Positions 2,094-46,340 of a stretch of 64,000 nt of DNA are shown one piece after another. Within the stretch, counting starts at the first letter, position 1. Every line of letters starts with the position of its first letter. The DNA is from Nitrospirota bacterium (GTDB taxonomy: Bacteria > Nitrospirota > UBA9217). The translations under genes were made by a program, and so were the position numbers. The notes under the pieces were generated by a model, which worked only from the letters and a program-made list of their open reading frames with translations, had not been told where the DNA came from and searched no databases. The stretch lies in NCBI GenBank assembly GCA_963754875.1, contig CAVWHO010000010.1:192001-256000 (forward strand). Direction: 5' to 3'.

Positions 2094-2389
2094 GTTTCCA
2101 CCTCCGCGAAGAATGTAAGAACGATGGAGAAATAATACCAGAGGTCGCGACGTTGGTCAACCGAGAAACACAGTCGTCGTAAAACCCTCCGGACCGCAAT
2201 GATGAGGGGGGTGACAACGTTACCCTTCTTCAGCGGAGGGAAATGCCGCGCCTACGTTCCCGGTAATACCGGAGCTCCCGCAGTTTGAGAGTTGGTATGA
2301 ACCTCGGGGATAAATTTTCTGGATATTTTGACGGATAGATGATAGAATTTAATTCACCATTAAACGAGAACGTGAGGAGGAATAGCTGC

Positions 2390-3108
2390 GTGCCGAAGTT
2401 GTCCGTGAACATTGACCATATCGCAACGATACGACAGGCAAGACAGGGAACAGAACCTGATCCGGTTGCTGCTGCCGTTCTCGCTGAATTGGCTGGTGCA
2501 GAGGGGATCATTGCCCATCTTCGGGAAGACCGCAGGCATGTGCAGGACCGCGACCTGCGCCTGCTGCGCAAGATTGTTCAGACCAAATTGAACATGGAGA
2601 TGGCCGCGACCGAAGAGATGCAGCGGATAGCCCTCGAAGTCAAGCCGGATTTTTCCACGCTGGTGCCGGAAAAACGTGAAGAACTGACGACCGAAGGAGG
2701 TCTTGAGGTCGCGTTGCGCATCGATTTTCTGAAATCCTACGTTGCACGGCTGCAGCAGGGAGGGATCATCGTCAGCCTCTTCGTCGACCCCGATGAAAAG
2801 CAGATCGCAGCCTCCAAAAAAACCGGCGCCGACTGGGTGGAACTGCATACGGGGACCTACGCGAACGCGAAGACCGAGAAAGACCGTCATCGCGAGTTCG
2901 TCAAAATCGACCGAGGCCGCAAAACTGGCAGCAAGTCTGGGGCTTCGCGTCGGGGCGGGACATGGACTGAATTACGTGAACGTCGGGAACATAGCGCCGC
3001 ATTCCGGAGGTGTCGGAGTTGAACATCGGTCACAGCATCATCTCACGGGCGGCGCTCGTGGGTATGGACCGTGCGGTCAGGGAAATGAATCGATTGGTTA
3101 AGGCATAG
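2390..3108 (+). CDS. pdxJ: Pyridoxine 5'-phosphate synthase (two apparent frameshifts, ~2910 and ~3010)
   Basis: [28 protein letters not shown] and AGHGLNY motifs across frames; GTG start after GAGGAGG. Confidence 0.93.
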
Positions 3109-3148
3109 GATTGTATTCTTATTCGTGGTGAACCGGGCGGGGAAAGGC

Positions 3149-3553
3149 ATGATCGTTGGTATCGGTGTTGATCTGGTCAAGATCGATCGGATCGACAAGG
3201 CGGGAAAAAACCATGAAGGATTTTTGGAACGTTTGTTCACGGACCGTGAACGCGAATACTGCTCTCGCCAAAAATTCCCAGCGCAGCATTACGCTGCCAG
3301 GTTCGCCGCAAAAGAGGCCGTGCTCAAGGCCATCGGAACCGGCTGGAGCGCCGGCGTCAAATGGACGGACATGGAAGTGCTCCACGGCGAAGGAGGGGGG
3401 CCGATCGTGAACCTCACCGGCAGGGTCAAGGACCTCATCGACCTTAAAGGAGTCAAACAGATTTTTCTCAGTTATTCCCACGACGATGGATACGCTGTAG
3501 CACAGGTGGTACTCGAAGGAAAACCGCTGATGAGCGGCGCAGACAGTGTTTAG
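3149..3553 (+). CDS. acpS: Holo-ACP synthase
   Basis: IVGIGVDLV, AARFAAKEA, LSYSHD motifs; follows pdxJ. Confidence 0.95.
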   Translation: MIVGIGVDLVKIDRIDKAGKNHEGFLERLFTDREREYCSRQKFPAQHYAARFAAKEAVLKAIGTGWSAGVKWTDMEVLHGEGGGPIVNLTGRVKDLIDLKGVKQIFLSYSHDDGYAVAQVVLEGKPLMSGADSV

Positions 3554-3570
3554 GCCGGCCCGGTAATGCC

Positions 3571-5118
3571 ATGAAAATTGCTACTGTTCAACAAATAAGA
3601 AATATCGACCGCAGGGCGATCAGGGAATTCGAAATTCCCGGTCCGGTCCTGATGGAGAATGCCGCGTCCTCCGTCCTGGCGGAAATGGAAAAATTCTTTG
3701 ACGGACTGGCCGGCGTGCGGGTCGGCATTATCTGCGGCAAGGGAAACAACGGCGGCGACGGGTTCGCTCTTGCGAGAAGGCTCAGGATACGCGGAGTACC
3801 GGTGCGCGTGGCGTTGCTTGCATCGTTCACTGCCGTATCCGGTGAGGCAAAAGTCAACCTCTCCATCCTTCGCAGGATGGATGTGGAAATCACTCAAAAT
3901 GCTTCTGCCCGTTTTGTCGCCGAGGTTTCCACGTGGTCGGATGTCATTGTCGACGCCCTGCTGGGAGTGGGATTGTCGTCGCCGCTCAAAGGCCTCTATG
4001 CGCAGGCCGTGGATACGATCAACGCGTCGGGCAGGCCGGTCGTTGCAATAGATGTCCCGACCGGCATCGATGCAGACACCGGTGCTGTCATGGGAACGGC
4101 GGTCAATGCCGATCTGACCGTGACCATGGCGCTTCTGAAACGTGGACTCGTGCTTTTCCCCGGCGCCCGCCATGCGGGAACGGTGAGGATTGCTGATATC
4201 GGAATTCCTTCAGAAGTCATCGAGAAAGAAAAGATCAACGTAGGCTTGCTGAATAAAGGCGCGCTCCTGGGAATGCTGGGACAGAGAAACCGGGACGCAC
4301 ATAAAGGCGACTTCGGACATCTTCTGGTTGTTGCAGGATCGCCGGGCAAGGCCGGTGCTGCAGCCATGACTGCCAAAAGCGCTCTCCGGACAGGAACAGG
4401 GCTCGTGAGTGTGGGAACGCCGAACGGCCTGGTCCCGATCATCCAGCAGCAGGTGTTTGAATCCATGTGCATTCCTTCGGCGGAGAGCATCGACGGCACG
4501 ATCGGACTCGGGGCTGAAAACGAACTGCTCAAGGTCGCAGCAAAGATGAGCGCATGCGCGATCGGGCCCGGTCTCTCGACACACTATGAAACAGTCCAGA
4601 TGGTGAGGAGCTTTCTGCAGCAAATAACGATCCCCGTTGTTATCGATGCCGATGGTTTGAATGCACTGGCCGGATCTCTTGAGGTGCTCAGGAAGACCAG
4701 GGGGCCGGTCATTATGACGCCTCACCCCGGCGAGATGGCCAGACTGTCGGGCATATCAATATCGGATGTCCAGAAGGACAGGATCGGCATTGCCACGGTT
4801 TTTGCTGCGAAGTACAAGGTAACGCTGGCGCTCAAGGGCGCAGGCACGGTGATCGCGACTCCTGACGGCTTGGTATACATCAATACGACGGGAAACCCCG
4901 GGATGGCCACAGGCGGCACCGGTGACGCGCTTACGGGAATGATCGGCAGCCTCCTTGCCCAGGGGCATGCTTCTCTGCAGGCTGTGTGTCTCGGCGTGTA
5001 TCTTCATGGCCTTGCAGGAGATCTTGCAGCAAAGGAAAAGGGCGAAGCAGGAATGATCGCCGGTGACTTAATCGAAAAGATCCCACAGGCTCTGCGAGAA
5101 ACGATCGAATCATCATAG
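3571..5118 (+). CDS. nnr: Bifunctional NAD(P)H-hydrate epimerase/dehydratase (YjeF)
   Basis: LMENAA, GKGNNGGDG, HKGDFG, TPHPGE, GGTGDAL motifs. Confidence 0.95.
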   Translation: MKIATVQQIRNIDRRAIREFEIPGPVLMENAASSVLAEMEKFFDGLAGVRVGIICGKGNNGGDGFALARRLRIRGVPVRVALLASFTAVSGEAKVNLSILRRMDVEITQNASARFVAEVSTWSDVIVDALLGVGLSSPLKGLYAQAVDTINASGRPVVAIDVPTGIDADTGAVMGTAVNADLTVTMALLKRGLVLFPGARHAGTVRIADIGIPSEVIEKEKINVGLLNKGALLGMLGQRNRDAHKGDFGHLLVVAGSPGKAGAAAMTAKSALRTGTGLVSVGTPNGLVPIIQQQVFESMCIPSAESIDGTIGLGAENELLKVAAKMSACAIGPGLSTHYETVQMVRSFLQQITIPVVIDADGLNALAGSLEVLRKTRGPVIMTPHPGEMARLSGISISDVQKDRIGIATVFAAKYKVTLALKGAGTVIATPDGLVYINTTGNPGMATGGTGDALTGMIGSLLAQGHASLQAVCLGVYLHGLAGDLAAKEKGEAGMIAGDLIEKIPQALRETIESS

Positions 5119-5205
5119 ATATAGACGCTTCTATCAACGTTCTGAAATTCCGTGGCGTTTACCGTGAACATCGGTAGTTAAATTTAATTTATTTGAGAGG
5201 TCCTT

Positions 5206-5664
5206 ATGTTGACCGCGAAAGACATCATGACAAAAAAGGTAATAACCGTTACACCCGACACTACGTTGAAGACGCTCGCCTCCTTACTAGTCAAGAACGA
5301 AATAAGCGGCGTACCTGTCGTCGATGATTCAGGAATGCTTTACGGCATCGTTACCGAGAACGACCTCATCTCGCAGAATAAACGGCTTCATATTCCCACG
5401 GTCGTGAGTTTTCTTGATGCAGCCATCTATCTCGAAAGCTCAAAGAAGTTCGAAGAGCAGGTGAAGCGGTTAACGGCAACAACAGTCAAAGAGATCTGCA
5501 TTCGCAAGGTCACAACGATATCTGAAGATGTATCAGTCGTGGATATCGCCACGATCATGGCCGAGAAGAAAGTTCATCTGCTTCCGGTGGTCAAAGCCGG
5601 CAAAGTCATCGGCATCGTGGGGAAACGCGATATGGTCAAGGCAGTAGCACGACAGGCCGAATAG
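5206..5664 (+). CDS. CBS-domain protein
   Basis: Two CBS repeats (DIMTKKVITV..ISGVPVVD..GIVT; LLPVV..GIVG). Confidence 0.9.
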   Translation: MLTAKDIMTKKVITVTPDTTLKTLASLLVKNEISGVPVVDDSGMLYGIVTENDLISQNKRLHIPTVVSFLDAAIYLESSKKFEEQVKRLTATTVKEICIRKVTTISEDVSVVDIATIMAEKKVHLLPVVKAGKVIGIVGKRDMVKAVARQAE

Positions 5665-6164
5665 TGTTCAGCGTCATCACCACAAACCAGGAACAAACCT
5701 GGAAGATCGGGGAAATGCTGGGCGCACGTCTCGCTGCCGGCGACACCGTCTGCCTCTATGGAGACCTGGGAGCGGGTAAAACGAGCTTTTCTTACGGTAT
5801 CGCACAGGGACTCGAAGTGGAAGAGCAATACATCACCAGCCCGACGTTCACCTTCGTGAATGAATACCAGGGCAGGGTCCCGTTTTACCACATTGATCTT
5901 TACCGCCTGTCGGATCCCGACGAGCTGCACAACATCGGTTTCGAAGAGTATCTTGATTCCGACGGGGTAACGGTGATCGAGTGGGCTGAGCGGGCAGAGG
6001 ACGAACTCCCGGCAGAATGCTTAAGCGTCTATCTTTCTTATGTGAATGATCACAGCCGGGAGATAGGCTTCTTGGCGGAAGGCGAGCGGTACCAGAAACT
6101 ACTGGATGCTTTGAGCAAAGAACTGAAGACAGATAAGCCTGATTCCGTGAAACTCAATAGATAA
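5664..6164 (+). CDS. tsaE: tRNA threonylcarbamoyladenosine biosynthesis ATPase
   Basis: GDLGAGKT, SPTF, HIDLYRL, IEWAE motifs. Confidence 0.95.
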   Translation: MFSVITTNQEQTWKIGEMLGARLAAGDTVCLYGDLGAGKTSFSYGIAQGLEVEEQYITSPTFTFVNEYQGRVPFYHIDLYRLSDPDELHNIGFEEYLDSDGVTVIEWAERAEDELPAECLSVYLSYVNDHSREIGFLAEGERYQKLLDALSKELKTDKPDSVKLNR

Positions 6165-6223
6165 GGGAGATATTTTACCCGGGTCTGGGACCGAGTTCGG
6201 TCAGCATTAAATAATTCCGGTGA

Positions 6224-7084
6224 ATGTGCGAAATGAAAAAGATCGGCATCATAGCAAAGGACATCCCGGCGGCCTTGAAGGCCGCGAAGAAGTTAACAGT
6301 TTGGCTTGAATCGCGGGGCAAAAAAGTTTATATCGACAACGAGACCGCCGCGTCTTTAAAAAAGCATGGACATGACCGTGCCGAGCTACCTTCGCTTGTC
6401 GAAATGCTGATCGTGCTCGGCGGTGACGGTACGCTTTTGTCCGCGGCACGGCATGTAGCAGACGCCCATACGAACGTGCCCATATTCGGAGTGAACCTGG
6501 GGAGCCTCGGTTTCATGGCAGAAGTATCTCATGAAGAACTTTACGACAATCTCGAAAAAGCCATGGCCGGAAAGCTCGAAACAGAGGAACGGATGATGCT
6601 CGCCACAACCGTCATCCGGGACGGGAAACGCATAGCGCGATACCGGGTGCTGAACGATGCTGTAATCAACAAAGGCGCTCTTGCGCGAATGATGCAGCTG
6701 AAAATTACGGTAAGCGACGGATACCTGACCACGCTCAGGGCAGACGGTCTTATCGTAGCAACCCCGACCGGGTCTACTGCGTATTCGCTTTCCGCAGGCG
6801 GGCCCATCATCCATCCGATGATCCACTGTTTCGTCGTAACGCCTATTTGTCCCCATACGCTCTCGAACCGGCCTATTGCCTTGCCCGATACCGTCGTTGT
6901 CAGCGTATGCCTTACTTCCCAGAGCGAAGACGTATCCCTCACCTTGGACGGCCAGATCAGCTTTCCGCTCAAGATGAATGATGTCGTGGAGATCAGGCGG
7001 TCCCGGTTCAAGATGAGACTTATTAAACATCCCGCAAAAAGTTATTACGAAATCCTCAGGACAAAGCTTAAGTGGGGGAATTGA
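6224..7084 (+). CDS. nadK: NAD kinase
   Basis: GGDGT, NLGSLGF, DGLIVATPTGSTAYSLSAGGP. Confidence 0.95.
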   Translation: MCEMKKIGIIAKDIPAALKAAKKLTVWLESRGKKVYIDNETAASLKKHGHDRAELPSLVEMLIVLGGDGTLLSAARHVADAHTNVPIFGVNLGSLGFMAEVSHEELYDNLEKAMAGKLETEERMMLATTVIRDGKRIARYRVLNDAVINKGALARMMQLKITVSDGYLTTLRADGLIVATPTGSTAYSLSAGGPIIHPMIHCFVVTPICPHTLSNRPIALPDTVVVSVCLTSQSEDVSLTLDGQISFPLKMNDVVEIRRSRFKMRLIKHPAKSYYEILRTKLKWGN

Positions 7085-7121
7085 TTTCAGGTTCGTAGTG
7101 CGAAGATTGGGTGTGGATCTC

Positions 7122-7923
7122 ATGGATGAAAATCAGCAGGAGCTTCTGGAAATTGTTACGCAGGTCAGGGGGCATCTTGAATATCAGAAAGCTCTTGGCG
7201 TGAAAGCGATCGCAGTACCTTCACTAAAAGTAGACCATAAAATCAGACAGCGCAGCGAAGAACGATGTAATTCCACCTCTGTCACGGTTTGCCGGGGCAG
7301 GAGGTTCAGTAAAACAAGTCCCTTCGTTCGAGACGGGAGGCGAAGGGAAAATCGTAAAGGTTCAACCGTCCCTTGCCTCGATACGCGCGGAACTGGGAGA
7401 TTGTACCCGGTGCAAGCTTTATAAGTGCAGAAAAACCATCGTCTTTGGCGAGGGCAACGAGGGGGCCGACCTCGTTTTCGTAGGAGAAGGTCCTGGCTAC
7501 GAAGAAGACCAGCAGGGAAGGCCTTTTGTCGGGGAAGCCGGACAGTTATTGACCGACATCATCATCAAGGGGATGAAGCTCAAGCGGGAAGATGTGTATA
7601 TCTGCAACGTTGTAAAATGTCGACCACCGGACAATCGTACGCCGGAGCCGGACGAAATATCTTCCTGCGAAACGTTTCTCCGAGAGCAAATCCAGGCGAT
7701 CAAACCAAAGGTGATCGTTACGTTGGGGAACGTCCCTACCCATACACTTCTTAAAACAAAGGACGGGATCACGAAGCTTCGCGGCAAGTGGCGGTCCTTC
7801 GAGGGAATACCGCTCATGCCGACTTTTCACCCCGCTTATCTCCTCAGGAATCCGAAGGACAAAGGACTCGTCTGGGAAGACATTCAGAAGGTCATGACGA
7901 AGCTGGGTATGAACGTGAGGTAG
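7122..7923 (+). CDS. Family-4 uracil-DNA glycosylase (frameshifted)
   Basis: CTRCKL, FVGEGPG, PFVGEAG, NVVKCRPP and TFHPAYLLRNP motifs spread over frames. Confidence 0.88.
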
Positions 7924-7956
7924 GAGTCAGGAGCCGGAAGTCAGGAGTCAGGAACA
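7922..7956 (+). repeat. Heptamer tandem array (AGGAGTC-type) upstream of four-helix-bundle gene
   Basis: AGGAGTC AGGAGCC GGAAGTC AGGAGTC AGGAACA. Confidence 0.85.
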
Positions 7957-7983
7957 GACAAAAGAATGAAAAGCTGGAGGGGC

Positions 7984-8352
7984 ATGAAGAGAACGCCCGC
8001 AAAGTGTTTTGAAGACCTGATTGTCTGGCAGAAGGCACACCAGTTTGTCTTGTCTGTTTACCGCATCAGTAACGAACTCCCACGCGATGAGATTTACGGT
8101 TTGACCTCGCAGCTCAGGCGTGCTGCAGTCTCTATTCCGGCCAACATAGCAGAAGGTTTAAAAAAAAGGAGCAAAGCGGATAAGGCGAGATTTATGAATA
8201 TTTCTCAAGGCTCCCTTGAAGAATGTCGCTACTATTTGATTTTGATTAAAGACTTGCAATATGGTGATAGTTCCGAACTTTTGACCCGACTTGAAGAAGT
8301 AAGTAAAATATTGGACGCGTACACTTCTTCCATTCTGAATCCTGGCTCCTGA
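7984..8352 (+). CDS. Four helix bundle protein (23S rRNA IVP / Avd-like family)
   Basis: FEDLIVWQKA..P.DEIYGLTSQLRRAAVSIPANIAEG..F..ISQGSLEEC signature; SD GGAGG before ATG 7984. Confidence 0.92.
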   Translation: MKRTPAKCFEDLIVWQKAHQFVLSVYRISNELPRDEIYGLTSQLRRAAVSIPANIAEGLKKRSKADKARFMNISQGSLEECRYYLILIKDLQYGDSSELLTRLEEVSKILDAYTSSILNPGS

Positions 8353-8357
8353 CCCCT
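8337..8357 (-). repeat. Inverted heptamer array overlapping the stop codon of the four-helix-bundle gene
   Basis: GAATCCT GGCTCCT GACCCCT are reverse complements of AGGAGTC-type units. Confidence 0.8.
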
Positions 8358-8368
8358 GCACATAAACT

Positions 8369-11049
8369 ATGTCCGACCTAACACCCCTCATGAAACAGTA
8401 CCGCGAGATCAAGCGCCAGCACCTCGATGCGATCCTGCTCTTTCGCATGGGTGACTTCTACGAGATGTTCGATCAGGACGCGGTGACAGCCTCGAAGGTG
8501 CTCGAAATCACGCTTACGGCACGGAACAAGTCCAAAGGCATCGAGACGCCGCTCTGCGGTTTCCCCTATCACGCGGCGGAAGGCTACATTGCGAAGCTCA
8601 TCCGCCGCGGGTTCAAGGTCGCCGTGTGCGAACAGGTCGAGGACCCCAAGCTCGCGAAGGGGATCGTAAAACGTGAGGTCATCCGCGTGGTCACACCGGG
8701 AACGGTGCTGGACTCGAACCTGCTCGACGCAAAGGACAACAACTACCTGGCGGCTCTCTATCCGGCGAAAGAAGGTTTCGGCCTGTCCTTTCTCGATATA
8801 TCAACCGGCGACTTTTCTCTCGCCGAAGTTCAGGGCGCTCATAATTTCGCTGAACTGGATACCATGCTGGCACGGTTCACACCGCGTGAGATTGTCATGC
8901 CGAGAGGATATCAATTGTCACGACGGCCTCTCAACAGTACTTCGCCAATATACGCAGGCGATCAACGCCTATGATGACTGGAATTTTGACCGGCAAACGG
9001 CAATGCGCGCCCTGCTCGACCATTTCAAGACAGCATCTCTTGAAGGTTTCGGCTGCAACGGCATGAAGACCGGCATTTCGGCGGCCGGTGCAGCGCTTCG
9101 GTACATCGAAGAAACGCAGAAGACGGCCCTCACGAACATTCGCACGATCCGCCCGTTCCTGGTCCGCGAATACATGGTCCTCGACGCTCCCTGCCAGCGC
9201 AATCTGGAATTGGCAAAAAATATCTACGACGGGTCGAACCGGGGAACGCTTCTTGCTGTTCTGGATTTCACCGTCACTTCCATGGGAGGCAGAAAACTGC
9301 GCGAATGGCTTTTGAATCCGCTCATGGACGCACGGGAAATAGAGCGGCGGTTCGATGTCGTCGCTGAATTCAAGGACAGCCATCAGCTCCGTTCAGATCT
9401 CAGGACGTCACTGGGCGCTGTGTACGATCTGGAGCGTCTTATCAGCCGTGTATCCCTGAGTGCGTCGAATGCCCGCGATCTGATCGCTCTCAAACAGTCT
9501 TTTCACGCGTTGCCGGCCATCAAAGAGCTGCTTGCCGGTTGTTCTGCCCGGCTTATCTATGATCTGGCAGAGGGATGGGACGATCTCAGGGATGTATCAC
9601 CAGATGATCGATACGGCAATTTACGACGACCCTCCCTATACGCTCCGTGAAGGTAAACTGATCAAAAAAGGATTTAACGCAGAACTCGACGACCTGCGCT
9701 CCATCAGTTCCGAAGGCAAGGGATGGATCGCGGGAATCGAGCTGCGTGAGCGCGAACGCACGGGCATCGGCTCGCTCAAAGTGAGCTATAACAGGGTCTT
9801 CGGATATTACATCGAAATCACCAAGGCGAACCTGGAGAACGTGCCGCTGGATTATATCCGGAAACAGACGCTCGCGAATGCAGAACGGTTCATCACTCCC
9901 GAACTGAAAGAATACGAGGACAAAGTACTTGGAGCCGAGGAAAAGATCCTCGATATGGAGTACCGGCTCTTTCAACAGGTGCGCGAAACAGTCTCCGGCC
10001 AGACCGTTCGCATCCAGGACATGGCGAGAAGGCTTGCTGTCCTGGATTGCCTCTTATCTCTTGCCGAAGCAGCGGCAAAGAACGCCTATACCCGGCCGAC
10101 GGTCCTCGACGACGATACGCTCCGGATCGTCGATGGAAGGCATCCGGTCATCGAGCAGCTCTTTGCCGAAGAACGCTTCATCCCGAATGACACGGTCCTC
10201 GACTGCGAGGAAAACCAGCTCTTGATCATTACGGGCCCGAACATGGCGGGCAAGTCGACCTACATGCGCCAGGTGGCGGTGATCACGCTCATGGCGCAGA
10301 TGGGAAGCTTCGTCCCTGCCAAGGAAGCGCAGATCGGGCTTGTGGACCGTATTTTTACGCGTGTCGGAGCATCGGATTTCATCACCCGCGGACAAAGCAC
10401 GTTCATGGTCGAGATGAACGAAACTGCGAACATCCTGAACAACGCCACGGACAGGAGCCTCATCATCCTTGATGAGATCGGCAGGGGAACGAGCACCTTT
10501 GACGGGATCAGCATTGCCTGGGCAGTGGCGGAATATATCCATACCAAGCTCAGGGCCCGGACGTTGTTCGCCACACACTACCACGAGCTCACCGAACTTG
10601 CCCTGACCATGGACCGGGTGAAAAACTACACCGTGGCCATCAGGGAGTGGAACGACCAGATCATCTTCCTGCGCAAAGTGATCGAGGGTGGAGCGGACAA
10701 ATCCTACGGTATCCAGGTGGCCCGTCTGGCCGGTTTGCCGCAGGCCGTTATCAACCGTGCCAAGGAAGTGCTTGCGAACCTCGAAAAAGCAGAGTTTAAC
10801 GAGATGGGAGAACCCGTAGCCGGATCGAAAATCGAAACACGGGAGCAGGCGACGGGGAGACGGGGGGATAAAAACAAAAACGCCGAAAAAGCTGGCGGCG
10901 CTGAAGCGATCGAGCCCGAGCTCGGGCTCTTTGCGAGCGAAGCAGGCCTGCTCTTCAAGGAGCTTCAGGACCTGAACCTCGACACCATGACGCCGCTCGA
11001 CGCTATGAACAAATTGCACGAGATTAAGAAGAAAGTGAGCGGCGCCTGA
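8369..11049 (+). CDS. mutS: DNA mismatch repair protein MutS (frameshifts ~8920 and ~9600)
   Basis: [42 protein letters not shown] motifs. Confidence 0.96.
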
Positions 11050-11179
11050 CCATACCGGCCGTACAGGAAAAAAGTCTATCAGAGGTTTTTCATGTCAACC
11101 GACCTTTTCATTTTCCCCGTCGAATAAGTCTGAGATTTTGCGGAGCGGGAGACCGCGAGCCTGGATAAACAGTCCGCGC

Positions 11180-11308
11180 AGCCTCGGCGTGACCAGCCTT
11201 TACGAGAGTGATCGCGATATCGACGAAATGATAAAGAGGGCGGATGAAGCTTTATACAAGGCAAAGAATGCTGGTCGGGACCGGGTAGAGGGTAACCCAA
11301 GTCGGTAA
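11180..11308 (+). pseudogene. Relic C-terminus of a GGDEF diguanylate cyclase
   Basis: Manual translation SLGVTSLYESDRDIDEMIKRADEALYKAKNAGRDRVEGNPSR*; no GG(D/E)EF motif or start upstream. Confidence 0.8.
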
Positions 11309-11348
11309 GACGGCCAGTTCTTTGCAAAGTGCCTCGCGCACTTCTTTG

Positions 11349-11378
11349 TTGACACTTTGCCCCTGTTTCTGGTAGTAT
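11349..11378 (+). promoter_or_regulatory. sigma70-type promoter for rplI
   Basis: TTGACA-N18-TAGTAT. Confidence 0.5.
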
Positions 11379-11413
11379 CGACAATCATTCACTCGAAAGG
11401 AGCAGTATCGTCA

Positions 11414-11861
11414 ATGCAGGTTATATTACGCGAAGATATCGACAAATTGGGGAAAATAGGCGACCTCGTCAAGGTTGCCGACGGCTATGCACGGAATTTT
11501 CTGGTCCCGAGGAAAAAGGCCATAGAAGCCACGCCAAAAAACCTTCATGCCATGGAGCATGCGAAAAAGATGGTGTCCGACCGCATCCGCAAGATGAAGA
11601 AGGAAGCGGCCGTGGAAGCCGACCGGATCAAGGGCATTGCGGTAACGATCAAAGCCAAGGTCGGTGAAGAAGGGAAAGCTCTTCGGTTCCGTTACGTCCA
11701 TGGACATTGCCGAAGCGGTAAAAGCCCAGGGTGTTGAACTGGACAAACGCAAGATCGTGCTCGACGAACCTATCAAGCGGCTGGGAGAATATACTATTGC
11801 GGTGAAACTGCATGCGGACGTGCAGACAGACCTCAAGGTCACCGTGATCGCCGAAGAGTAA
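11414..11861 (+). CDS. rplI: 50S ribosomal protein L9 (frameshift ~11675)
   Basis: [27 protein letters not shown] and GKLFGSVT motifs. Confidence 0.95.
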
Positions 11862-11876
11862 CCCGCAAAATCCAAC

Positions 11877-11946
11877 CGGATTCAGGAGCCAGGAGTCAGA
11901 AGTCAGAAGATACACGCTGGTTTCGGGCTTCTGGCTTCTTTTTTTG
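11877..11946 (+). repeat. Gene-less inverted heptamer arrays followed by a T-tract (terminator-like)
   Basis: CGGATTC AGGAGCC AGGAGTC AGAAGTC AGAAGAT ... GGCTTCT GGCTTCT TTTTTT. Confidence 0.75.
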
Positions 11947-11971
11947 TTTATGCCGTATTTGAGGTAGAACC

Positions 11972-13424
11972 ATGTCCATGCAGACCGAAGTTTCCCTTCA
12001 AAAACTCCCCCCTCAGAACATCGAAGCCGAACAGATGGTCCTCGGCGCCGTTCTGATCGAAAACGATTCCATCAATAAAGTCATAGAAACGCTGTCTGCC
12101 GAGGATTTCTACAAAGACACGCACCGCAGGATCTATTCCGTCATGCTCGACATGTTCGAGACCGGTGAGGCAATCGACCTGGTGACCCTGACCGATGCGC
12201 TTCGCGGAAAGGTCGGACTTGATGCGGTGGGAGGGGCATCGTACCTTGCCTACCTCGTCAGCCTCGTACCTACTGCTGCGAACATCAAGAACCACGCCAG
12301 GATCGTGCGCGAGAAATCGGTCCTGCGCCAGCTTATCCACTCATCGACGGACATCATCACCCAAAGCTACGAGGACACGAGGTCCGTCAACAGCATCGAT
12401 GAACTGCTCGACCGGGCCGAGGAATCGATCTTTAAAATATCGCAGCAAAAGATGCGGGACACGTTTGTCGCAGTGAAGGACATCGTCAAGAGCAGCTTCG
12501 AGACCATTGAGCGGCTTTACGAACGCAAGGAAATGATGACCGGCCTTCCTACGGGTTTCCTTGACCTCGATAAGATGACCTCCGGCCTTCAGCCGAGCGA
12601 CCTCATCATCGTGGCAGGCAGGCCGTCCATGGGGAAGACGGCGTTCGCGTTAAACATCGCAGCCCACGCGGCGATGGACCATCACAAATCCGTTGCCGTC
12701 TTCAGCCTGGAAATGTCCAAGGAACAGCTGGTTCTCCGCATGCTTTGCTCCGAGGCGCGCGTGGACGCCCACAAGCTGCGCTCGGGCTTCCTGTCCGAAT
12801 CGGACTGGCCAAAACTGACCATGGCCGCGGGACGGCTGTCCGATGCGCCTATCTTCATAGATGATACCGCTGCAATCTCGGTGCTTGAAATGCGCGCCAA
12901 GGCGAGACGGCTCCAGGCGGATCACGGACTCGATCTCATCATCGTTGATTATCTGCAGCTCATGCGCGGCCGCAGCGATTCCGACAACCGCGAGCAGGAA
13001 ATATCGAACATCTCCGCGTTCGCTCAAGGCGCTTGCCAAGGAACTCAAAGTCCCGGTAATAGCGCTCTCCCAGCTCAACCGCGCCGTGGAAACGAGAGGC
13101 AAGGACAAACGGCCGATGCTTGCCGATCTTCGCGAATCCGGCGCAATCGAGCAGGATGCGGACGTGATCATGTTCATCTACCGCGACGAGGTGTACAATA
13201 AATGTGAGTGCCCTTACGACGGCGAATGCCTCTGCGGCAGGCGGGGTGTTGCCGAGGCGATCATCGGAAAGCAGAGAAACGGTCCGGTCGGTATCGTGAA
13301 CATGACGTTTATGCACAAATATACGCGCTTCGAAAACTCTGATAAAGCGGAGCTATTAGCGCTTGCACTGCCGACAAGTGGACATTATCAGACGCTATGC
13401 CGTCATAGAAAATTACGAACTTGA
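11972..13424 (+). CDS. dnaB: Replicative DNA helicase (frameshift ~13018; true 3' end uncertain, may be ~13359)
   Basis: [49 protein letters not shown] motifs. Confidence 0.95.
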
Positions 13425-16059: not shown

Positions 16060-16932
16060 ATGCTTCGTTCACCGGCAGTCGCAGGGCACTTCTATAAAGC
16101 CTCCCCGGAAGCTCTCAGAAAACAGGTCGAAGGCTTCCTCATATCGGGAGCAATAAAAAGGAGAGCCATCGGCATCGTTGTTCCCCACGCCGGATTGATC
16201 TATTCCGGGGCAGTAGCAGGTGCGGTGTATTCTTCCATAGAGATCCCGGATACGCTTGTCCTCATCGGACCCAACCATACCGGCCTCGGTGCGGCCGTTT
16301 CCCTCATGGCCAAGGGCAGCTGGGAAACGCCGCTCGGCACCGTGGAAATAGACGAAGCATTGGCCGCTTCCATCCTCTCGCAATCGCGCCTCATTCATGA
16401 AGACGCGCTTGCCCATCTCCAGGAACATTCCCTCGAAGTACAGCTGCCGTTCATCCAATATTTCAAAAAAAAGTTCAAAATTGTCCCGATCCAGATGCTC
16501 GACACCCGGCTTGAAACCTGTCTAGAGGTGGGCAGGGCGGTGGCAGAAGCTATTAAAAAACGCAAAGAGCAGGGGGAAAAAGGCAAGCTTAAAACTGAGG
16601 ATGAATCGGCAATCGGCAATCCGAAATCCGAAATTCAAGACGTTCTTATCGTGGCAAGCTCGGATATGACTCATTACGAACCGGCGGCCAAGGCAAAGGA
16701 AAAAGATTCAAAAGCCATCCATTCCATCCTTAACCTTGACCCCGAGGGCCTGTACCGCGTGGTCCGAGATTATGAGATCACGATGTGCGGCTACGGTCCG
16801 ACGGTTGCCATGCTGGAAGCCGGTAAAATCCTCGGGGCCTCCAAAGCAGAACTGATCAAGTACTCCAACTCCGGAGAGACGAGCGGAGATTACGACAAGG
16901 TCGTAGGGTATGCAGGAATCGTAGTTATGTAA
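16060..16932 (+). CDS. amrB: AmmeMemoRadiSam system protein B (MEMO1 family)
   Basis: PAVAGHFY, PHAGLIYSG, GPNH, EHSLEVQLPF, SSDMTH, MCG, VVGYAG motifs. Confidence 0.93.
   Translation: MLRSPAVAGHFYKASPEALRKQVEGFLISGAIKRRAIGIVVPHAGLIYSGAVAGAVYSSIEIPDTLVLIGPNHTGLGAAVSLMAKGSWETPLGTVEIDEALAASILSQSRLIHEDALAHLQEHSLEVQLPFIQYFKKKFKIVPIQMLDTRLETCLEVGRAVAEAIKKRKEQGEKGKLKTEDESAIGNPKSEIQDVLIVASSDMTHYEPAAKAKEKDSKAIHSILNLDPEGLYRVVRDYEITMCGYGPTVAMLEAGKILGASKAELIKYSNSGETSGDYDKVVGYAGIVVM
16604..16638 (+). repeat. In-frame heptamer array inside amrB
   Basis: AATCGGC AATCGGC AATCCGA AATCCGA AATTCAA, read as SAIGNPKSEIQ. Confidence 0.8.
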
Positions 16933-30878: not shown

Positions 30879-32123
30879 ATGTTTATATTGCTGCTCTTGG
30901 TATATATTGCTGTTCTCTCCATTCGCTACTGGCTCAGCTCGCTGAATCGCGCATACCTGAAAAAGCACGGTCATACCGTCCCTCCCGAGTTTCAGGGAAT
31001 AATAGATCCGGACCATCTTCAAAAAATCACAAATTATACATTAGAAAACAGCAGATTCGCGACGATAGAGTCCATTCTCTCCAACATCCTCGTGGTTGTT
31101 TTCCTCTTTGGCGGGCTGCTGGGGTACTATGACCACTGGGTGAGTTCCCTAACAGGTTCTTTTATCGGCAATGGGATCATTTTTGCCCTGGTCCTTTTTT
31201 ATATCGAAACGATCATCGACATTCCGTTCAGCCTGTACCGGAACTTTCAGATCGAAAACCGCTACGGCTTTAATACCATGACTCTGCGTCTCTGGGTCAC
31301 GGACCTTCTTAAATCCGTGGCCATAGCAACGGTCCTGAGCTCCCTTGTCGTTTTCATCGCCCTCGCTATTATCCAGGCGAGCCCTTACTGGTGGTGGCTC
31401 TGGGTATGGGCGTTTCTCCTGGTCTTCGGCATTTTTATCATGTACCTGTCGCCGACGCTCATTGAACCGCTTTTTTTTAAATTCGAGCCCGTAAAAGCGG
31501 AAGGCCTGGAAGAGCGGATTCGGTCGCTCATGGAGAGGGCCGGGCTTAAAGTCAGCCGTGTCTTTCAGGTTGACGCTTCGCGCAGGAGCCGGCACTCGAA
31601 CGCCTACTTTACCGGCATTGGCCGGGTGAAGCGCATTGTCCTCTTCGATACTCTCATTGAACAGATGTCGCAGGACGAAATTCTGGCTGTCCTGGCCCAT
31701 GAAGTAGGCCACTGGAAGAAGCGGCATGTGCTGAAGAGCATAATTTTGAGCGAGACCATGGCATTCTGCGGCCTCTTTCTGGCATTTCATCTCATTTCGT
31801 GGGACGGACTTCCGGGCCTGATCAATCTTCCCCAGGCTTCTTTTTACGCACGGGTGATCATCATTGGGTTCATCGGTTCTCTTGTCATGTTCCCGGTGAC
31901 GCCTTTTTTCAGCTACTTATCCCGGAGAAATGAACGTGAGGCGGACCGGTTTGCCTCCGAGCTGACCCATCAGCCGGAATATCTCGCATCCTCACTTGTA
32001 AAACTCTCACGGGAGAATCTGGCTAACCTGCATCCCCACCCGCTGTATGCCAAGATTTATTACTCCCATCCTCCGGTCGTGGAAAGGGTGCGGGGGCTGA
32101 AGACAGAAGTCAGGAGCCAGTAG
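30879..32123 (+). CDS. M48 family (Ste24-like) membrane metalloprotease
   Basis: NAYFTG, AHEVGH, EREAD, YSHPP motifs. Confidence 0.93.
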   Translation: MFILLLLVYIAVLSIRYWLSSLNRAYLKKHGHTVPPEFQGIIDPDHLQKITNYTLENSRFATIESILSNILVVVFLFGGLLGYYDHWVSSLTGSFIGNGIIFALVLFYIETIIDIPFSLYRNFQIENRYGFNTMTLRLWVTDLLKSVAIATVLSSLVVFIALAIIQASPYWWWLWVWAFLLVFGIFIMYLSPTLIEPLFFKFEPVKAEGLEERIRSLMERAGLKVSRVFQVDASRRSRHSNAYFTGIGRVKRIVLFDTLIEQMSQDEILAVLAHEVGHWKKRHVLKSIILSETMAFCGLFLAFHLISWDGLPGLINLPQASFYARVIIIGFIGSLVMFPVTPFFSYLSRRNEREADRFASELTHQPEYLASSLVKLSRENLANLHPHPLYAKIYYSHPPVVERVRGLKTEVRSQ

Positions 32124-32206
32124 TCTGGAGTCAGGAGATTGGAGTTGTTTGCCCTCGCGGTTCTCTCTTCCTTTTGCCGGCTTCTGAATTCTGACTCCCG
32201 GCTCCT
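32098..32206. repeat. Gene-less inverted heptamer arrays
   Basis: TGAAGAC AGAAGTC AGGAGCC AGTAGTC TGGAGTC AGGAGAT TGGAGTT ... GGCTTCT GAATTCT GACTCCC GGCTCCT. Confidence 0.85.
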
Positions 32207-44202: not shown

Positions 44203-46340
44203 TTGCGTCAAGGTAAGCCCGAGACAGTGGGAATCCCGCCGTGAGGCGCGATGAAATCTGTCATTGTTGTCCAGTGGGTGAGAGCGCCGATTGCTCAAGT
44301 CCCATCCGACTAAAGCCTAGCCGGCAGGTCGGTAGCGAAGCCCGCGTGCGTTTCCGTGAGGAAAGGTGCGAAGCCGGGCGGAGCAAGTTTGCAGGCCGTG
44401 TTATTGAATCCCGAAATATGTATAGTTGTGGACAGTAGGATAACCTTCAAAGCATCGGAGGGAAAGCCAACGTATGGACCCAACGGAAGGCAGCAGTCCC
44501 CGGAGCGCTACGGCGAGCGAAAGGGACACCACCGGGATCTTAGAGCGGGGCACGCACACAAAGGGATAACTCGGGAACTTGAGAGAGCCTGATGTTTCCA
44601 TGCTGAACAGCCGGACGGACACCGGCGGAACAAAGTCCATGGCGTCGGTAACGCGCTCTCTAATGCCGACGATCGAAACCAGAGAGCAAGCATGGTATCG
44701 TAGCGCCACCTAAAGCGAAGTGCTGCGAGACGGGCGTCAGGCAGTCTTAGCCGATCATAGTACCGATGGTCCCAAAGCATCCGGGACCGGGAAGGTGGGG
44801 AACCGAGGTCCAAGGGACCCACTCAAGGGAAGGAAAGGCCGGGCATAACGTCTTCTGGAAGGAACTATGAGAGATACTCCGGGATCGCCAATCATATCAC
44901 CGAAACTCCAGAAGGTTGCGGAACAGGCACGGAAGTATCCGGAGATGGTGTTCAACAATCTGTATCACCTGATCGATCATGAACTTCTCTTGGAAGCCTA
45001 CCACCGGACGAGCAAAGACAGTGCGCCAGGGGTGGATAAGGTCACGGCACAAGAATACGCCGAAGCCTTGTACGGAAACCTCCACGACCTGCACGAACGG
45101 CTCAAATCAAGCCGTTACGTGGCTCCGCCCGTCGAACGGGTATGGATCAAGAAGGAAGACGGCAAGCTGAGACCGATAGGCAAACCCTGCTACGGAGACA
45201 AGATCGTCCAACGAGCGGTGGTCATGATCCTGGAAGTCATCTTCGAGCCGATATTCCAATCGTTCTCCCATGGCTTCAGAAAAGGTCATAGTCAGCATCA
45301 GGCGATACGGGAACTACGAGAACAGTGCATCAAACTGAACATCAACTGGATAGTGGATGCGGATGTAAGCGGATTTTTCGATACCATCAATCACGAAATG
45401 CTCAGAAGCTTCATCGAGAAGAAAGTGAAGGATGGAGGAATACTGAGGCTCATCGGCAAATGGCTCAATGCCGGAGTGCTCGACGGCGGGAGCATGATAT
45501 ATCCCGACAACGGCACCCCACAGGGCGGAGTAGCATCGCCGATGCTCGCCAACATATTCCTGCACTATGTGCTGGATGAATGGTATGTACAGGACGTACA
45601 GCCACGCCTCAAGGGAAAGAGCTTTCTGATTCGGTATGCCGATGATTTTATCATCGGTTTCGAGCACGAAGCCGACGCCCGCCGGGTCATGGAAGTCCTG
45701 CCGAAACGGTTCAGCCGCTTCAAGCTGACCATTCATCCCGAAAAGACGAAGCTGGTGCGGTTCATCCAGCCGTCCCCGAAAGAGGAGACGGAAAAGGAAA
45801 ATGGGACATTCGATTTTCTCGGATTCACCCATTACTGGGCCAAATCGCTTCACGGTTACTGGTTCATCAAGCGAAAGACAATCGGCAAGCGGCTCCGAAG
45901 GTTCATGAAAGCTATATGGGAATGGTGCCGGGAGAATATGCACGAACCCATTGAGGAACAGCACAAAGCGCTGCGTTCCAAGCTGCGCGGCTACTACCAG
46001 TACTACGGGATTCGCGGAAACTACAAGATGCTTGAAGTGGTATTTGAGCATACTGAGCGAGCCTGGCGGCGCTGGCTAGGGAGGCGCTGCAGCAAAGGCT
46101 ACGTGACCGTCGAGGAGTTTGACAGCTTCCACCGGAGGGTCTTTCCGCTGCCGAAACCCAGGATCATCCACAACGTCTGACCGGGCCAAGGGACAGCAAA
46201 AGTTATGCGCCAAACGGGGACGCGTCACCTGTTTGGTTAGCCGCGGGCTAAGGCCTGCGGTGACTGACGAACCGGATGCCTTAATCGGGCACGTCCGGGT
46301 CTGTGGGGGGAGCGGCGGGCAACCGCTGCTCCTACCCGGA
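44203..46340 (+). mobile_element. Group II intron (class E-like, no En domain)
   Basis: 5' TTGCG; EBS1 GGACCC (44476-44481) complementary to the exon end GGGTCC (44197-44202); DV/DVI at ~46269-46340; RT/maturase ORF. Confidence 0.9.
44867..46180 (+). CDS. ltrA: Group II intron reverse transcriptase/maturase
   Basis: APGVD, RPIG, GTPQGG, YADD, FDFLGFTH, LP.PRIIH; no HNH domain. Confidence 0.95.
   Translation: MRDTPGSPIISPKLQKVAEQARKYPEMVFNNLYHLIDHELLLEAYHRTSKDSAPGVDKVTAQEYAEALYGNLHDLHERLKSSRYVAPPVERVWIKKEDGKLRPIGKPCYGDKIVQRAVVMILEVIFEPIFQSFSHGFRKGHSQHQAIRELREQCIKLNINWIVDADVSGFFDTINHEMLRSFIEKKVKDGGILRLIGKWLNAGVLDGGSMIYPDNGTPQGGVASPMLANIFLHYVLDEWYVQDVQPRLKGKSFLIRYADDFIIGFEHEADARRVMEVLPKRFSRFKLTIHPEKTKLVRFIQPSPKEETEKENGTFDFLGFTHYWAKSLHGYWFIKRKTIGKRLRRFMKAIWEWCRENMHEPIEEQHKALRSKLRGYYQYYGIRGNYKMLEVVFEHTERAWRRWLGRRCSKGYVTVEEFDSFHRRVFPLPKPRIIHNV

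What the first reader, a model, noticed from the sequence alone, without database searches (positions are those of the whole stretch)
7922..8357. Avd/IVP-like four-helix-bundle gene packaged between inverted heptamer arrays: candidate unrecognised mobile or RNA-processing unit
Seen: the gene interrupts an otherwise housekeeping udg-mutS run. It is bracketed by five AGGAGTC-type heptamers (7922-7956) and three reverse-complement units (8337-8357); the right array supplies its last codons and stop. On the transcript the arrays could pair and loop out the whole ORF. Known: this protein family was first described inside excised 23S rRNA intervening-sequence stems and is related to the RNA-binding DGR Avd proteins. 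Inference: an mRNA-level intervening sequence, or a REP/RAYT-like system in which the protein recognises, propagates or processes the heptamer hairpins.
Basis: partly seen in the sequence, partly recalled or inferred. Interest (0 to 1): 0.8.

Follow-up and report, generated by a model that had tools for sequence, protein, structure and literature searches.

The report
Gene cassette with its own repeat-word
A small gene of the 'rRNA intervening-sequence protein' family sits between two mirror-image runs of a 7-base word just before mutS; each branch of this gene family carries its own word into unrelated operon gaps and leaves gene-less hairpins when it decays, so it is likely a little-known mobile cassette and a likely source of bacteria's unexplained 7-base repeats.

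Summary
Observation confirmed. A PF05635/TIGR02436 four-helix-bundle gene fills the udg-mutS gap between five AGGAGTC-type units and three inverted ones. All five such genes in this genome, and 113 of 121 in its family, have inverted short-word arms. The word follows the protein clade, not the host genome. Close homologues precede 35 different gene families in many phyla. At the mutS junction, 59 loci show a full decay series (4 intact, 4 broken, remnants, gene-less hairpins, empty), other words at the same spot, and at least one lateral exchange. The protein is under purifying selection and folds like the Xcc0516 pentamer and Avd. Best reading: an IVS-type mobile cassette outside rRNA whose protein likely recognises its own word; gene-less hairpins are its relics. 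No mobilising enzyme was found. mRNA-level excision is untested and weakly supported: no G·U bias, and the stem here is weak. The scan noted this class before on other DNA (186 findings). Nine paper searches did not find the gene-plus-word link outside 23S rRNA.

The parts
7549..7923 (+). 3' part of udg (family-4-type uracil-DNA glycosylase; upstream part in other frames, probably assembly indels); its stop codon overlaps the first array unit
   Evidence: PF03167 83 bits; sequence
7922..7956 (+). Left arm: five heptamers of the AGGAGTC class, purine-rich strand 5' of the gene
   Evidence: purine-rich 5' arm in 60 of 60 homologue loci with stem score >=15
7957..7986 (+). Leader with GGAGG-like ribosome-binding motif before the ATG at 7987 (an in-frame upstream ATG at 7966 is not conserved)
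   Evidence: sequence; homologues align from residue 5-9 onward
7987..8352 (+). Four-helix-bundle IVP gene (PF05635 / TIGR02436), 121 aa; near-invariant Q49, R52, S56, N60, E63, E86 (numbering from the 7966 ATG)
8337..8357 (-). Right arm: three inverted heptamers; encodes the last codons and the stop of the IVP gene
8358..8368 (+). 11-nt mutS leader; a similar leader follows the right arm in filled, truncated and gene-less alleles of relatives
   Evidence: read by eye
8369..11049 (+). mutS (host gene, split over three frames here, probably assembly indels)
   Evidence: PF01624, PF05188; PF00488, PF05190, PF05192
11876..11940 (+). Gene-less hairpin of the same word class between rplI and dnaB, followed by a T run; putative relic used as a terminator
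32105..32190 (+). Gene-less hairpin of the same word class at the end of an M48 peptidase gene; relatives carry other words at the same point

Best explanation
This is a gene-plus-inverted-repeat cassette of the same build as the ORF-bearing 23S rRNA intervening sequences, lodged in an operon gap, and its protein, predicted to form an Avd-like ring, likely recognises its own repeat word and so likely helps the cassette spread, while the many gene-less hairpins are likely its relics. Shown here: (1) the unit is gene plus two inverted arms of a 7-9-base word, each protein clade with its own word; (2) it occupies dozens of unrelated gene junctions in many phyla, almost always right after the stop codon of a co-directional gene; (3) at the mutS junction of this family it is an old insertion that decays stepwise and has been exchanged laterally at least once; (4) the protein sequence is under purifying selection. 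Inferred: the host operon transcribes it; the protein is a pentamer (by likeness to 2GSC and Avd); it binds the word on RNA or single-stranded DNA, as Avd binds a stem-loop with all five protomers; and that binding promotes insertion or re-filling at junctions. Not identified: the enzyme that makes the DNA joint. No transposase, reverse transcriptase or target-site duplication accompanies the unit, so the step is either borrowed from the host (recombination) or done by the protein's invariant polar residues.
For: Arms: 5 of 5 IVP genes over the Pfam cut-off in this genome lie inside inverted pairs; 113 of 121 family IVPs; 64 of 78 close homologues against 4 of 69 controls. Word follows the protein: for pairs at different sites, word similarity >0.3 in 43% of 344 pairs at 70-80% protein identity against about 1% of 12,828 pairs under 50%; IVPs in the same genome share words in only 3 of 132 pairs. 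The word persists although synonymous sites are saturated (dN 0.10-0.18; dS >=1.3 or saturated). Many sites: 42 of 54 downstream genes tested had a Pfam match, in 35 different families, none an RT or transposase; 113 family loci fall into 55 neighbourhoods. Position: upstream gene co-directional in 134 of 162 loci, its stop within -15..+30 nt of the array start in 89 of 134; gene-less hairpins lie in 48 co-directional, 10 convergent and 0 divergent junctions (p 3e-4, crude gene calls). Decay series among 59 mutS junctions of 58 genomes: 4 open frames, 4 broken, 2 3'-remnants, 6 right-arm remnants, 1 clean gene-less hairpin of the same word, 2 with no arms. Lateral exchange: the G013 filled allele has a mutS start 1 mismatch in 87 nt from a gene-less allele in the same assembly, yet its IVP is 86% identical to G009's while their mutS genes are 76% identical; a G009+G013 mutS clade is rejected (p-AU 0.0003). 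Relics: the top word of 39 of 59 gene-less 7-mer hairpins here is in the library of IVP-flank words, against a mean of 6 (max 15) for letter-permuted words. Genomes with a close IVP homologue have more matches to this word (median 20.9 vs 3.2 per Mb; n 10 vs 54). Fold: TM 0.94 to 2GSC, 0.80 to Avd 4DWL; Avd binds a stem-loop with all five protomers (10.1101/2023.10.23.563531, section 8 read).
Against: Binding, oligomer state and mobility were not tested. Gene and arms are physically linked, so co-inheritance alone gives some word-clade match. The gene-array association is not significant after correcting for kinship (3.4 pairs same way, 0 opposite, of 8; p 0.25), and G038, G040 and G039 have many arrays without a close homologue found. 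At two gene-less hairpin sites no IVP-sized insert was seen among 60 and 57 family genomes with a match, so those hairpins are not shown to be relics of a filled allele. Most history at the mutS site can be vertical: 7 of 8 alleles form one clade (97/97) and G055+G052 agree with mutS. A re-gain in this genome is not proven: G000+G013 is not rejected in the IVP tree (p-AU 0.054), and the gene-less allele of its sisters could have arisen more than once by deletion. G013 is a binned assembly and its cassette ends at a contig edge. The modal arm has 4 units, not 5. Word swaps at one junction could also be local concerted drift.
Confidence: 0.5

Rival explanations
1. mRNA-level intervening sequence: the arms pair on the operon transcript and RNase III cuts the stem, removing the IVP reading frame and splitting the udg and mutS messages, as shown for the Coxiella 23S element.
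For: In Coxiella the S23p IVS has tandem heptamers before the ORF and a 28-bp terminal stem, and RNase III cuts at the first repeat (PMC4990558, passages). The arms pair in the MFE and centroid folds. An RNase III gene is present. Across 31 loci of this word class, arms of one locus are more complementary than arms of different loci (24.3 vs 19.3; 24 of 31). No hairpin lies in a divergent junction.
Against: No G·U over A·C excess on the sense strand (71 vs 62 in 60 filled loci; 43 vs 47 in 41 gene-less hairpins). Overall folding z -1.38. This locus's own stem scores 15, below all six non-cognate pairings of its left arm (19-25). In 73 of 134 loci the upstream gene's stop lies inside or after the array start, so a cut would risk stop-less messages (inference). 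Single-arm remnants persist. Arm concordance also follows from DNA-level copying or shared host base composition. This reading does not by itself explain the spread.
Confidence: 0.2
2. A useful host accessory gene (for example an RNA chaperone or stress factor) that moves by ordinary gene transfer; the arrays are its autoregulatory binding sites or terminators, not mobility signals.
For: Strong purifying selection; long residence at the mutS site; the rplI-dnaB hairpin is kept in 23 of 30 loci with a T run, and a classic terminator stands in its place in 5, so the arrays can serve the host.
Against: 4 of 8 near-full alleles at the mutS site are broken (some breaks may be assembly errors) and most relatives have lost the gene. 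19 of 64 family genomes have no PF05635 match at E<=1e-15. 35 unrelated downstream families give no functional theme. Paralogues in one genome use different words. Selection between transfers also explains low dN in selfish elements (established for homing endonucleases; recalled).
Confidence: 0.13
3. The arrays arise locally by slippage and template switching at any short gap, and IVP genes merely sit in, or drop into, such hairpins.
For: Gene-less hairpins outnumber filled ones (61 vs 5 here); the word changes at a fixed junction in relatives; genomes with many arrays can lack the matching gene; GxxExxY genes here also have inverted 9-10-base arms (2 of 2), so the design is not unique to IVP.
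Against: Words follow protein clade across phyla and not the host genome. Words of gene-less hairpins match IVP-flank words far above permuted controls. Genomes with no IVP match mostly lack fresh arrays of this word (15 of 19 have <=5 matches). The purine-rich arm is always 5' in filled loci (60 of 60), a polarity that random slippage does not predict.
Confidence: 0.1
4. A detached DGR-like accessory: the protein recruits a reverse transcriptase in trans, which copies the cassette or hairpin RNA back into DNA at transcribed junctions.
For: Fold shared with Avd, whose role is to hold RNA for an RT; insertion only downstream of transcribed genes; the genome has RT genes (7 matches).
Against: Avd models are below cut-off. 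No RT among 54 downstream genes tested. The two RTs inspected look like group II intron proteins by their sequence (my reading), and the one near an IVP paralogue lies about 0.7 kb downstream, interrupting a cas3-like gene. No template/variable repeat pair was seen near the locus (one search covers 7600-8700 only).
Confidence: 0.07

Closest known systems
ORF-bearing intervening sequence of 23S rRNA (S23p; Coxiella burnetii helix 45, Leptospira) - PMC4990558, abstract and passages read
   Same: Same protein family; tandem heptamers just before the ORF; terminal inverted repeats; patchy distribution, horizontal origin and gene decay.
   Different: Here it lies between protein-coding genes, at dozens of unrelated sites. 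Excision is not shown. The paper does not describe clade-specific words or gene-less hairpins elsewhere in genomes.
Paired tandem-repeat sites of Geobacter metallireducens, class 3 (five heptamers, consensus MTYCTGA, on opposite strands) - PMC2700814, passages read; supplement search covered 12 of 19 files and did not find the class-3 table entries
   Same: The consensus is the complement of this element's word class; paired, inverted, intergenic; the orthologous gap in a sister species holds a different sequence.
   Different: Read there as binding sites of an unknown global regulator (IHF/HU suggested). The main text does not link them to four-helix-bundle genes (0 hits for 'four helix' or 'S23').
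Heptamer repeats of Xanthomonas and Nostoc (PMC4692102, passages) and TAACTGA repeats of Beggiatoaceae (PMC4679880, passages); cyanobacterial STRR (recalled)
   Same: 7-base units, about four per arm, 70-75 convergent inverted pairs per Xanthomonas genome, close to stop codons, rare between divergent genes.
   Different: Explained there by G-quadruplex formation or translational control; no cognate gene or mechanism of spread given.
Avd of diversity-generating retroelements (PDB 4DWL, 8UBB; bioRxiv 10.1101/2023.10.23.563531, section 8 and passages read; PMC10053308, passages)
   Same: Same four-helix fold (TM 0.78-0.80); pentamer; binds an RNA stem-loop encoded next to its gene.
   Different: 12-14% identity; no RT, template repeat or variable repeat here.
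REP/BIME elements with RAYT transposases (recalled; not read here)
   Same: Many gene-less intergenic hairpins plus rare genes flanked by the same repeat, with repeat and protein co-varying; absent from divergent gaps.
   Different: The gene is not a Y1/HUH transposase; the arms are tandem words without a GTAG-type foot; Y1 genes in this genome showed no such word arrays in the 130 nt upstream (6 inspected).
Xcc0516 (PDB 2GSC) and BT_0352 (PDB 2RLD)
   Same: Sequence and fold homologues (E 1e-18 and 2e-4; TM 0.94 and 0.89); five chains per entry.
   Different: Function unknown; no ligand.

Membership tests
PF05635 / TIGR02436 four-helix-bundle (IVP, S23p) | HMM score over the curated cut-off | tested here: met
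   128 bits vs 33.8; 122 vs 24
PF05635 / TIGR02436 four-helix-bundle (IVP, S23p) | Four-helix fold of 2GSC | tested here: met
   pLDDT 93.5, four helices; TM 0.94
PF05635 / TIGR02436 four-helix-bundle (IVP, S23p) | Homopentamer | not testable with these tools
   complex tool takes at most 4 copies; inferred from 2GSC/2RLD
23S rRNA intervening sequence | Located inside an rRNA gene | tested here: not met
   flanked by udg and mutS; no Rfam match in 7000-13000
23S rRNA intervening sequence | Terminal inverted repeats able to pair around an S23p ORF | tested here: met
   the stem is imperfect (83%)
23S rRNA intervening sequence | Excision by RNase III without religation | not testable with these tools
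   no RNA run listed; RNase III gene present
Diversity-generating retroelement | Avd family score over cut-off | tested here: not met
   21/40 and 28/80 bits
Diversity-generating retroelement | Adjacent RT and template/variable repeat pair | tested here: not met
   neighbours are udg and mutS; the only RT match in the window is 36 kb away; none among 54 homologue neighbours
REP-RAYT system | Y1/HUH transposase between the repeats | tested here: not met
   only PF05635 and bAvd match
REP-RAYT system | Dispersed gene-less hairpins cognate to the gene's flanks, avoiding divergent gaps | tested here: met
REP-RAYT system | Protein binds and cuts the repeat | not testable with these tools
   needs biochemistry
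Insertion sequence / MITE | Target-site duplication and fixed terminal inverted repeats | tested here: inconclusive
   no duplication seen by eye at 59 junctions, but no near-identical empty/filled pair covering both ends was available
Homing element (intron/intein-like allele) | Site-bound clade with lateral transfer between hosts at the same site | tested here: inconclusive
   7 of 8 alleles monophyletic, one clear incongruence; no co-conversion tract in udg or mutS; no nuclease shown

The most novel reading that the evidence does not exclude
PF05635 proteins are the sequence-specific engine of a new class of mobile element: each pentamer reads its own 7-9-base word and, through its invariant Q/R/S/N/E/E residues or a borrowed host enzyme, writes or re-fills word-armed hairpins just after stop codons, with or without its gene. 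This would give one origin for STRR-type, Xanthomonas, Geobacter and Beggiatoa heptamer repeats and for ORF-bearing rRNA intervening sequences, make Avd a domesticated member, and make GxxExxY genes a parallel family with longer words.
Probability: 0.3. Interest if true: 0.87.

Novelty: new variant of a known kind. Interest (0 to 1): 0.64.

Why it matters
It ties three long-open items together: a very large protein family with solved structures but no function, the unexplained excess of 7-base repeats in bacterial gene gaps, and the origin of ORF-bearing rRNA intervening sequences. The clade-to-word table gives ready cognate and non-cognate substrates, so protein specificity can be tested directly. 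If the protein reads words, it is a natural family of small repeat-binding rings with many specificities. The decay series and the terminator-like relic at rplI-dnaB show how such inserts may become host signals.

Tried and rejected
RNA evidence: no RNA holder listed; no evidence either way, so no reads were laid. G·U strand bias as a sign of RNA-level selection: none. 'Five units for five protomers': the modal arm has 4 units (49 of 134 5' arms, 42 of 127 3' arms). Re-gain in this genome: first suspected because G000 nests among three genomes sharing one gene-less allele (mutS 100/99, p-AU 0.03 for the alternative; udg 95/86). Those three spacers are homologous (scores 80-94 vs controls 24-54), but their link to the G002/G004/G012 spacers is no higher than controls (40-62), and they resemble the udg-HIT gap hairpin, so repeated deletion remains possible; left open. 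Co-conversion tracts in udg or mutS: none seen. Other cargo inside 7-mer pairs in this genome: of 13 long pairs, 5 held IVP genes; those of the rest that I inspected were host genes between neighbouring hairpins or arms inside coding sequence. Filled alleles at two gene-less sites: none. Phage carriage: only 3 distant matches in viral contigs. Rfam: nothing at E<=1 in 7000-13000. Promoter/terminator scan: one sigma-70-like site (8281-8309) against 0.4 expected; not used. Kinship-corrected test of gene versus array load: not significant. Literature: nine searches found the Coxiella IVS, the repeat papers and the Avd papers, and none describing IVP genes with cognate inverted word arrays in mRNA operons; most subscription papers are not searched, and PMC1895974 was not held. 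Complex prediction was not run (a pentamer exceeds the copy limit; a pass would follow 2GSC). Rows dropped: 2 of 80 homologue loci lacked full flanks; 17 of 138 family loci had no hit, short flanks or duplicate protein; 22 of 76 downstream ORFs (opposite-strand calls, the two mutS loci and one short ORF) were not sent to Pfam; L034 and L035 gave the same junctions as two handles and were counted once.

Full report
The observation. The udg stop overlaps the first unit and mutS starts 11 nt after the last, so the unit fills the gap exactly. The protein matches PF05635 and TIGR02436 far above cut-off and Avd models only below it. Its model (pLDDT 93.5) matches Xcc0516 at TM 0.94 and Avd at 0.80. 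GC3 is 47% against 67-73% in the neighbours. The host family appears to belong to Nitrospirota, judged from named records at the same site. Many genes in the window are frameshifted, probably by assembly errors (inference).

The unit recurs. All five IVP genes over the cut-off in this genome lie inside inverted arrays, of four other words besides this one, two of them 9-mers. The genome also has 61 short-loop, gene-less pairs and 157 period-7 arrays against 0 in a shuffle. Among 80 close homologues (53-78% identity, many phyla), 64 of 78 with full flanks have inverted arms against 4 of 69 controls. Of 54 downstream genes tested, 42 had a Pfam match, in 35 families, none an RT or transposase. 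In the family, 113 of 121 IVP genes have arms, mostly period 7, with clades at period 8 and 9; the 113 loci with a word profile fall into 55 neighbourhoods.

The word belongs to the protein clade. At different sites, pairs with 70-80% protein identity share their word in 43% of 344 cases, pairs under 50% in about 1% of 12,828. Paralogues in one genome share it in 3 of 132 pairs. Synonymous sites among the mutS-site alleles are saturated while dN is 0.10-0.18, so a short word outlasts neutral sequence. Linkage explains part of this, so it is not proof of recognition. Six polar residues are near-invariant in 121 proteins (Q49, R52, S56, N60, E63, E86). The top word of 39 of 59 gene-less heptamer hairpins here occurs among IVP-flank words, against 6 for permuted words. 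Genomes with a close homologue have more matches to this word (20.9 vs 3.2 per Mb), and 15 of 19 genomes without any IVP match have five or fewer; but the kinship-corrected test is not significant and three genomes have many arrays without a close homologue.

History of this site. Of 64 family genomes searched, 59 mutS junctions from 58 genomes were read. Four carry an open IVP frame (G000, G009, G055, G071). Four carry a broken one (G052, G062, G075, G013; frameshifts may be assembly errors). Two keep only the gene's 3' end with the right arm, six keep only a right arm, G007 keeps both arms as a clean hairpin, and G008 and G072 have no arms. About a dozen carry hairpins of other, longer words like those around the two GxxExxY genes of this genome (read by eye). 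The filled alleles are scattered over the mutS tree (a clade of the five then known is rejected, p-AU 3e-41), yet 7 of 8 of their IVP genes form one clade (97/97). This fits one old insertion with many losses. One pair is congruent (G055+G052). One is not: the G013 IVP is 86% identical to G009's while mutS is 76%, and G009+G013 is rejected for mutS (p-AU 0.0003); its mutS start differs by 1 of 87 nt from a gene-less allele in the same assembly. This points to lateral exchange with a breakpoint close to the mutS start, with the caveat of a binned assembly and a contig edge. Whether this genome re-acquired its copy stays open. No co-conversion tract was seen.

Where the units sit. The upstream gene is co-directional in 134 of 162 loci, and its stop lies within -15 to +30 nt of the array start in 89 of 134. 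Gene-less hairpins occupy 48 co-directional, 10 convergent and no divergent junctions (p 3e-4 with crude gene calls). Short operon gaps explain the closeness to stops, but not the avoidance of divergent gaps. Two other junctions show different words at the same point in different relatives: after the M48 peptidase gene at about 32,100 (19 loci read, five word types) and between udg and the HIT gene; most of these words also flank an IVP clade (by eye). At rplI-dnaB the hairpin is kept in 23 of 30 loci with a T run, and five have a classic terminator instead, which suggests use as a terminator. No IVP-sized insert was seen at the rplI-dnaB or M48 sites.

RNA or DNA. Arms of one locus are more complementary than arms of different loci of the same class (24.3 vs 19.3, 24 of 31), so something keeps them alike. 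But there is no G·U excess on the sense strand, the stretch folds no better than shuffles (z -1.38), and this locus's stem is weaker than non-cognate pairings. RNase III is encoded; no RNA run was listed. Excision from mRNA is therefore possible but unsupported.

Mechanism. I commit, at 0.5, to a mobile cassette whose protein recognises its own word and thereby promotes insertion or re-filling at transcribed junctions, with gene-less hairpins as relics. The architecture, spread and decay are shown. Pentamer, binding and a role in spread are inferred, the binding by analogy to Avd, which holds a stem-loop with all five protomers (10.1101/2023.10.23.563531). The joining enzyme is unknown. Rivals: mRNA-level IVS (0.2), useful host gene (0.13), local repeat dynamics (0.1), RT-assisted copying (0.07).

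What is known. The S23p IVS of Coxiella has heptamers, terminal inverted repeats and RNase III excision (PMC4990558). Gene-less paired heptamer arrays are in print for Geobacter, with this very word class (PMC2700814), and for Xanthomonas and Nostoc (PMC4692102); direct heptamer repeats are in print for Beggiatoaceae (PMC4679880). My nine searches found no paper linking them to this gene family in protein-coding operons; subscription papers and 7 of 19 Geobacter supplements were not searched. The scan itself has noted the class 186 times on other DNA; those notes are not independent evidence. What this locus adds is the decay series, the clade-versus-genome test and the tree incongruence.

Verdict. 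Real; a new variant of a known kind (an IVS-type cassette outside rRNA); interest 0.64. The boldest reading not excluded, a new class of mobile element driven by word-reading pentamers, has probability 0.3 and would merit 0.87.

Noticed in passing
window 11876-11940 (rplI-dnaB): Gene-less hairpin of the same word with a T run, kept in 23 of 30 family loci; 5 have a classic intrinsic terminator instead, which suggests domestication as a terminator.
   Followed up: yes
window 32105-32190 and loci L338-L357: The same junction after an M48 peptidase gene carries hairpins of at least five different words (7- and 8-mers) in relatives, starting at the same point in the last codons.
   Followed up: partly
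G000:C11:6381-6725 and C13:90892-91216 (L197, L198): Both GxxExxY (TIGR04256) genes are flanked by inverted 9-10-base word arms, a parallel cassette family; similar gene-less hairpins occupy the mutS junction in about a dozen relatives.
   Followed up: partly
window 44867-46180: Reverse transcriptase ORF (PF00078) that looks like a group II intron protein; the genome has 7 RT matches, one interrupting a cas3-like gene on C8 next to an IVP paralogue.
   Followed up: partly
window 16601-16640; G000:C7:187300-187620; C16:22863 and 23521; C16:378490: Single word arrays inside coding sequences, in frame (Memo-like gene, P-type ATPase, response regulator and sensor kinase, Fe-S oxidoreductase), recalling Rickettsia palindromic elements (recalled).
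   Followed up: no
L006 / L148 (G013:C188, near 6940-7071): The IVP gene is cut off 5' by a roughly 140-nt palindromic REP/MITE-like element at the contig edge.
   Followed up: no
L056, L068, L069, L081, L099: Acidobacterial homologues lack the left array but keep the right one; in three of them a different conserved palindromic element follows.
   Followed up: no
family udg-HIT-mutS loci (L143-L191): A HIT-family gene lies between udg and mutS in many family genomes and is absent from all loci read in this genus; HIT and mutS starts share a short microhomology that could drive repeated deletion.
   Followed up: partly
window 8281-8309: Sigma-70-like site (10 of 12) inside the IVP 3' end pointing into mutS; 1 found against 0.4 expected.
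   Followed up: no
window 2339-13424: pdxJ, udg, mutS, rplI and dnaB are all split by frameshifts, most likely long-read assembly indels.
   Followed up: no
G000:C7:43875-44459: A small antitoxin-toxin-like gene pair (RelE/ParE-like by eye) lies between two direct heptamer arrays.
   Followed up: no
L020 and L032: Close IVP homologues sit directly upstream of a gene identified as cas1 in L032 (PF01867); L020's downstream start looks alike.
   Followed up: no
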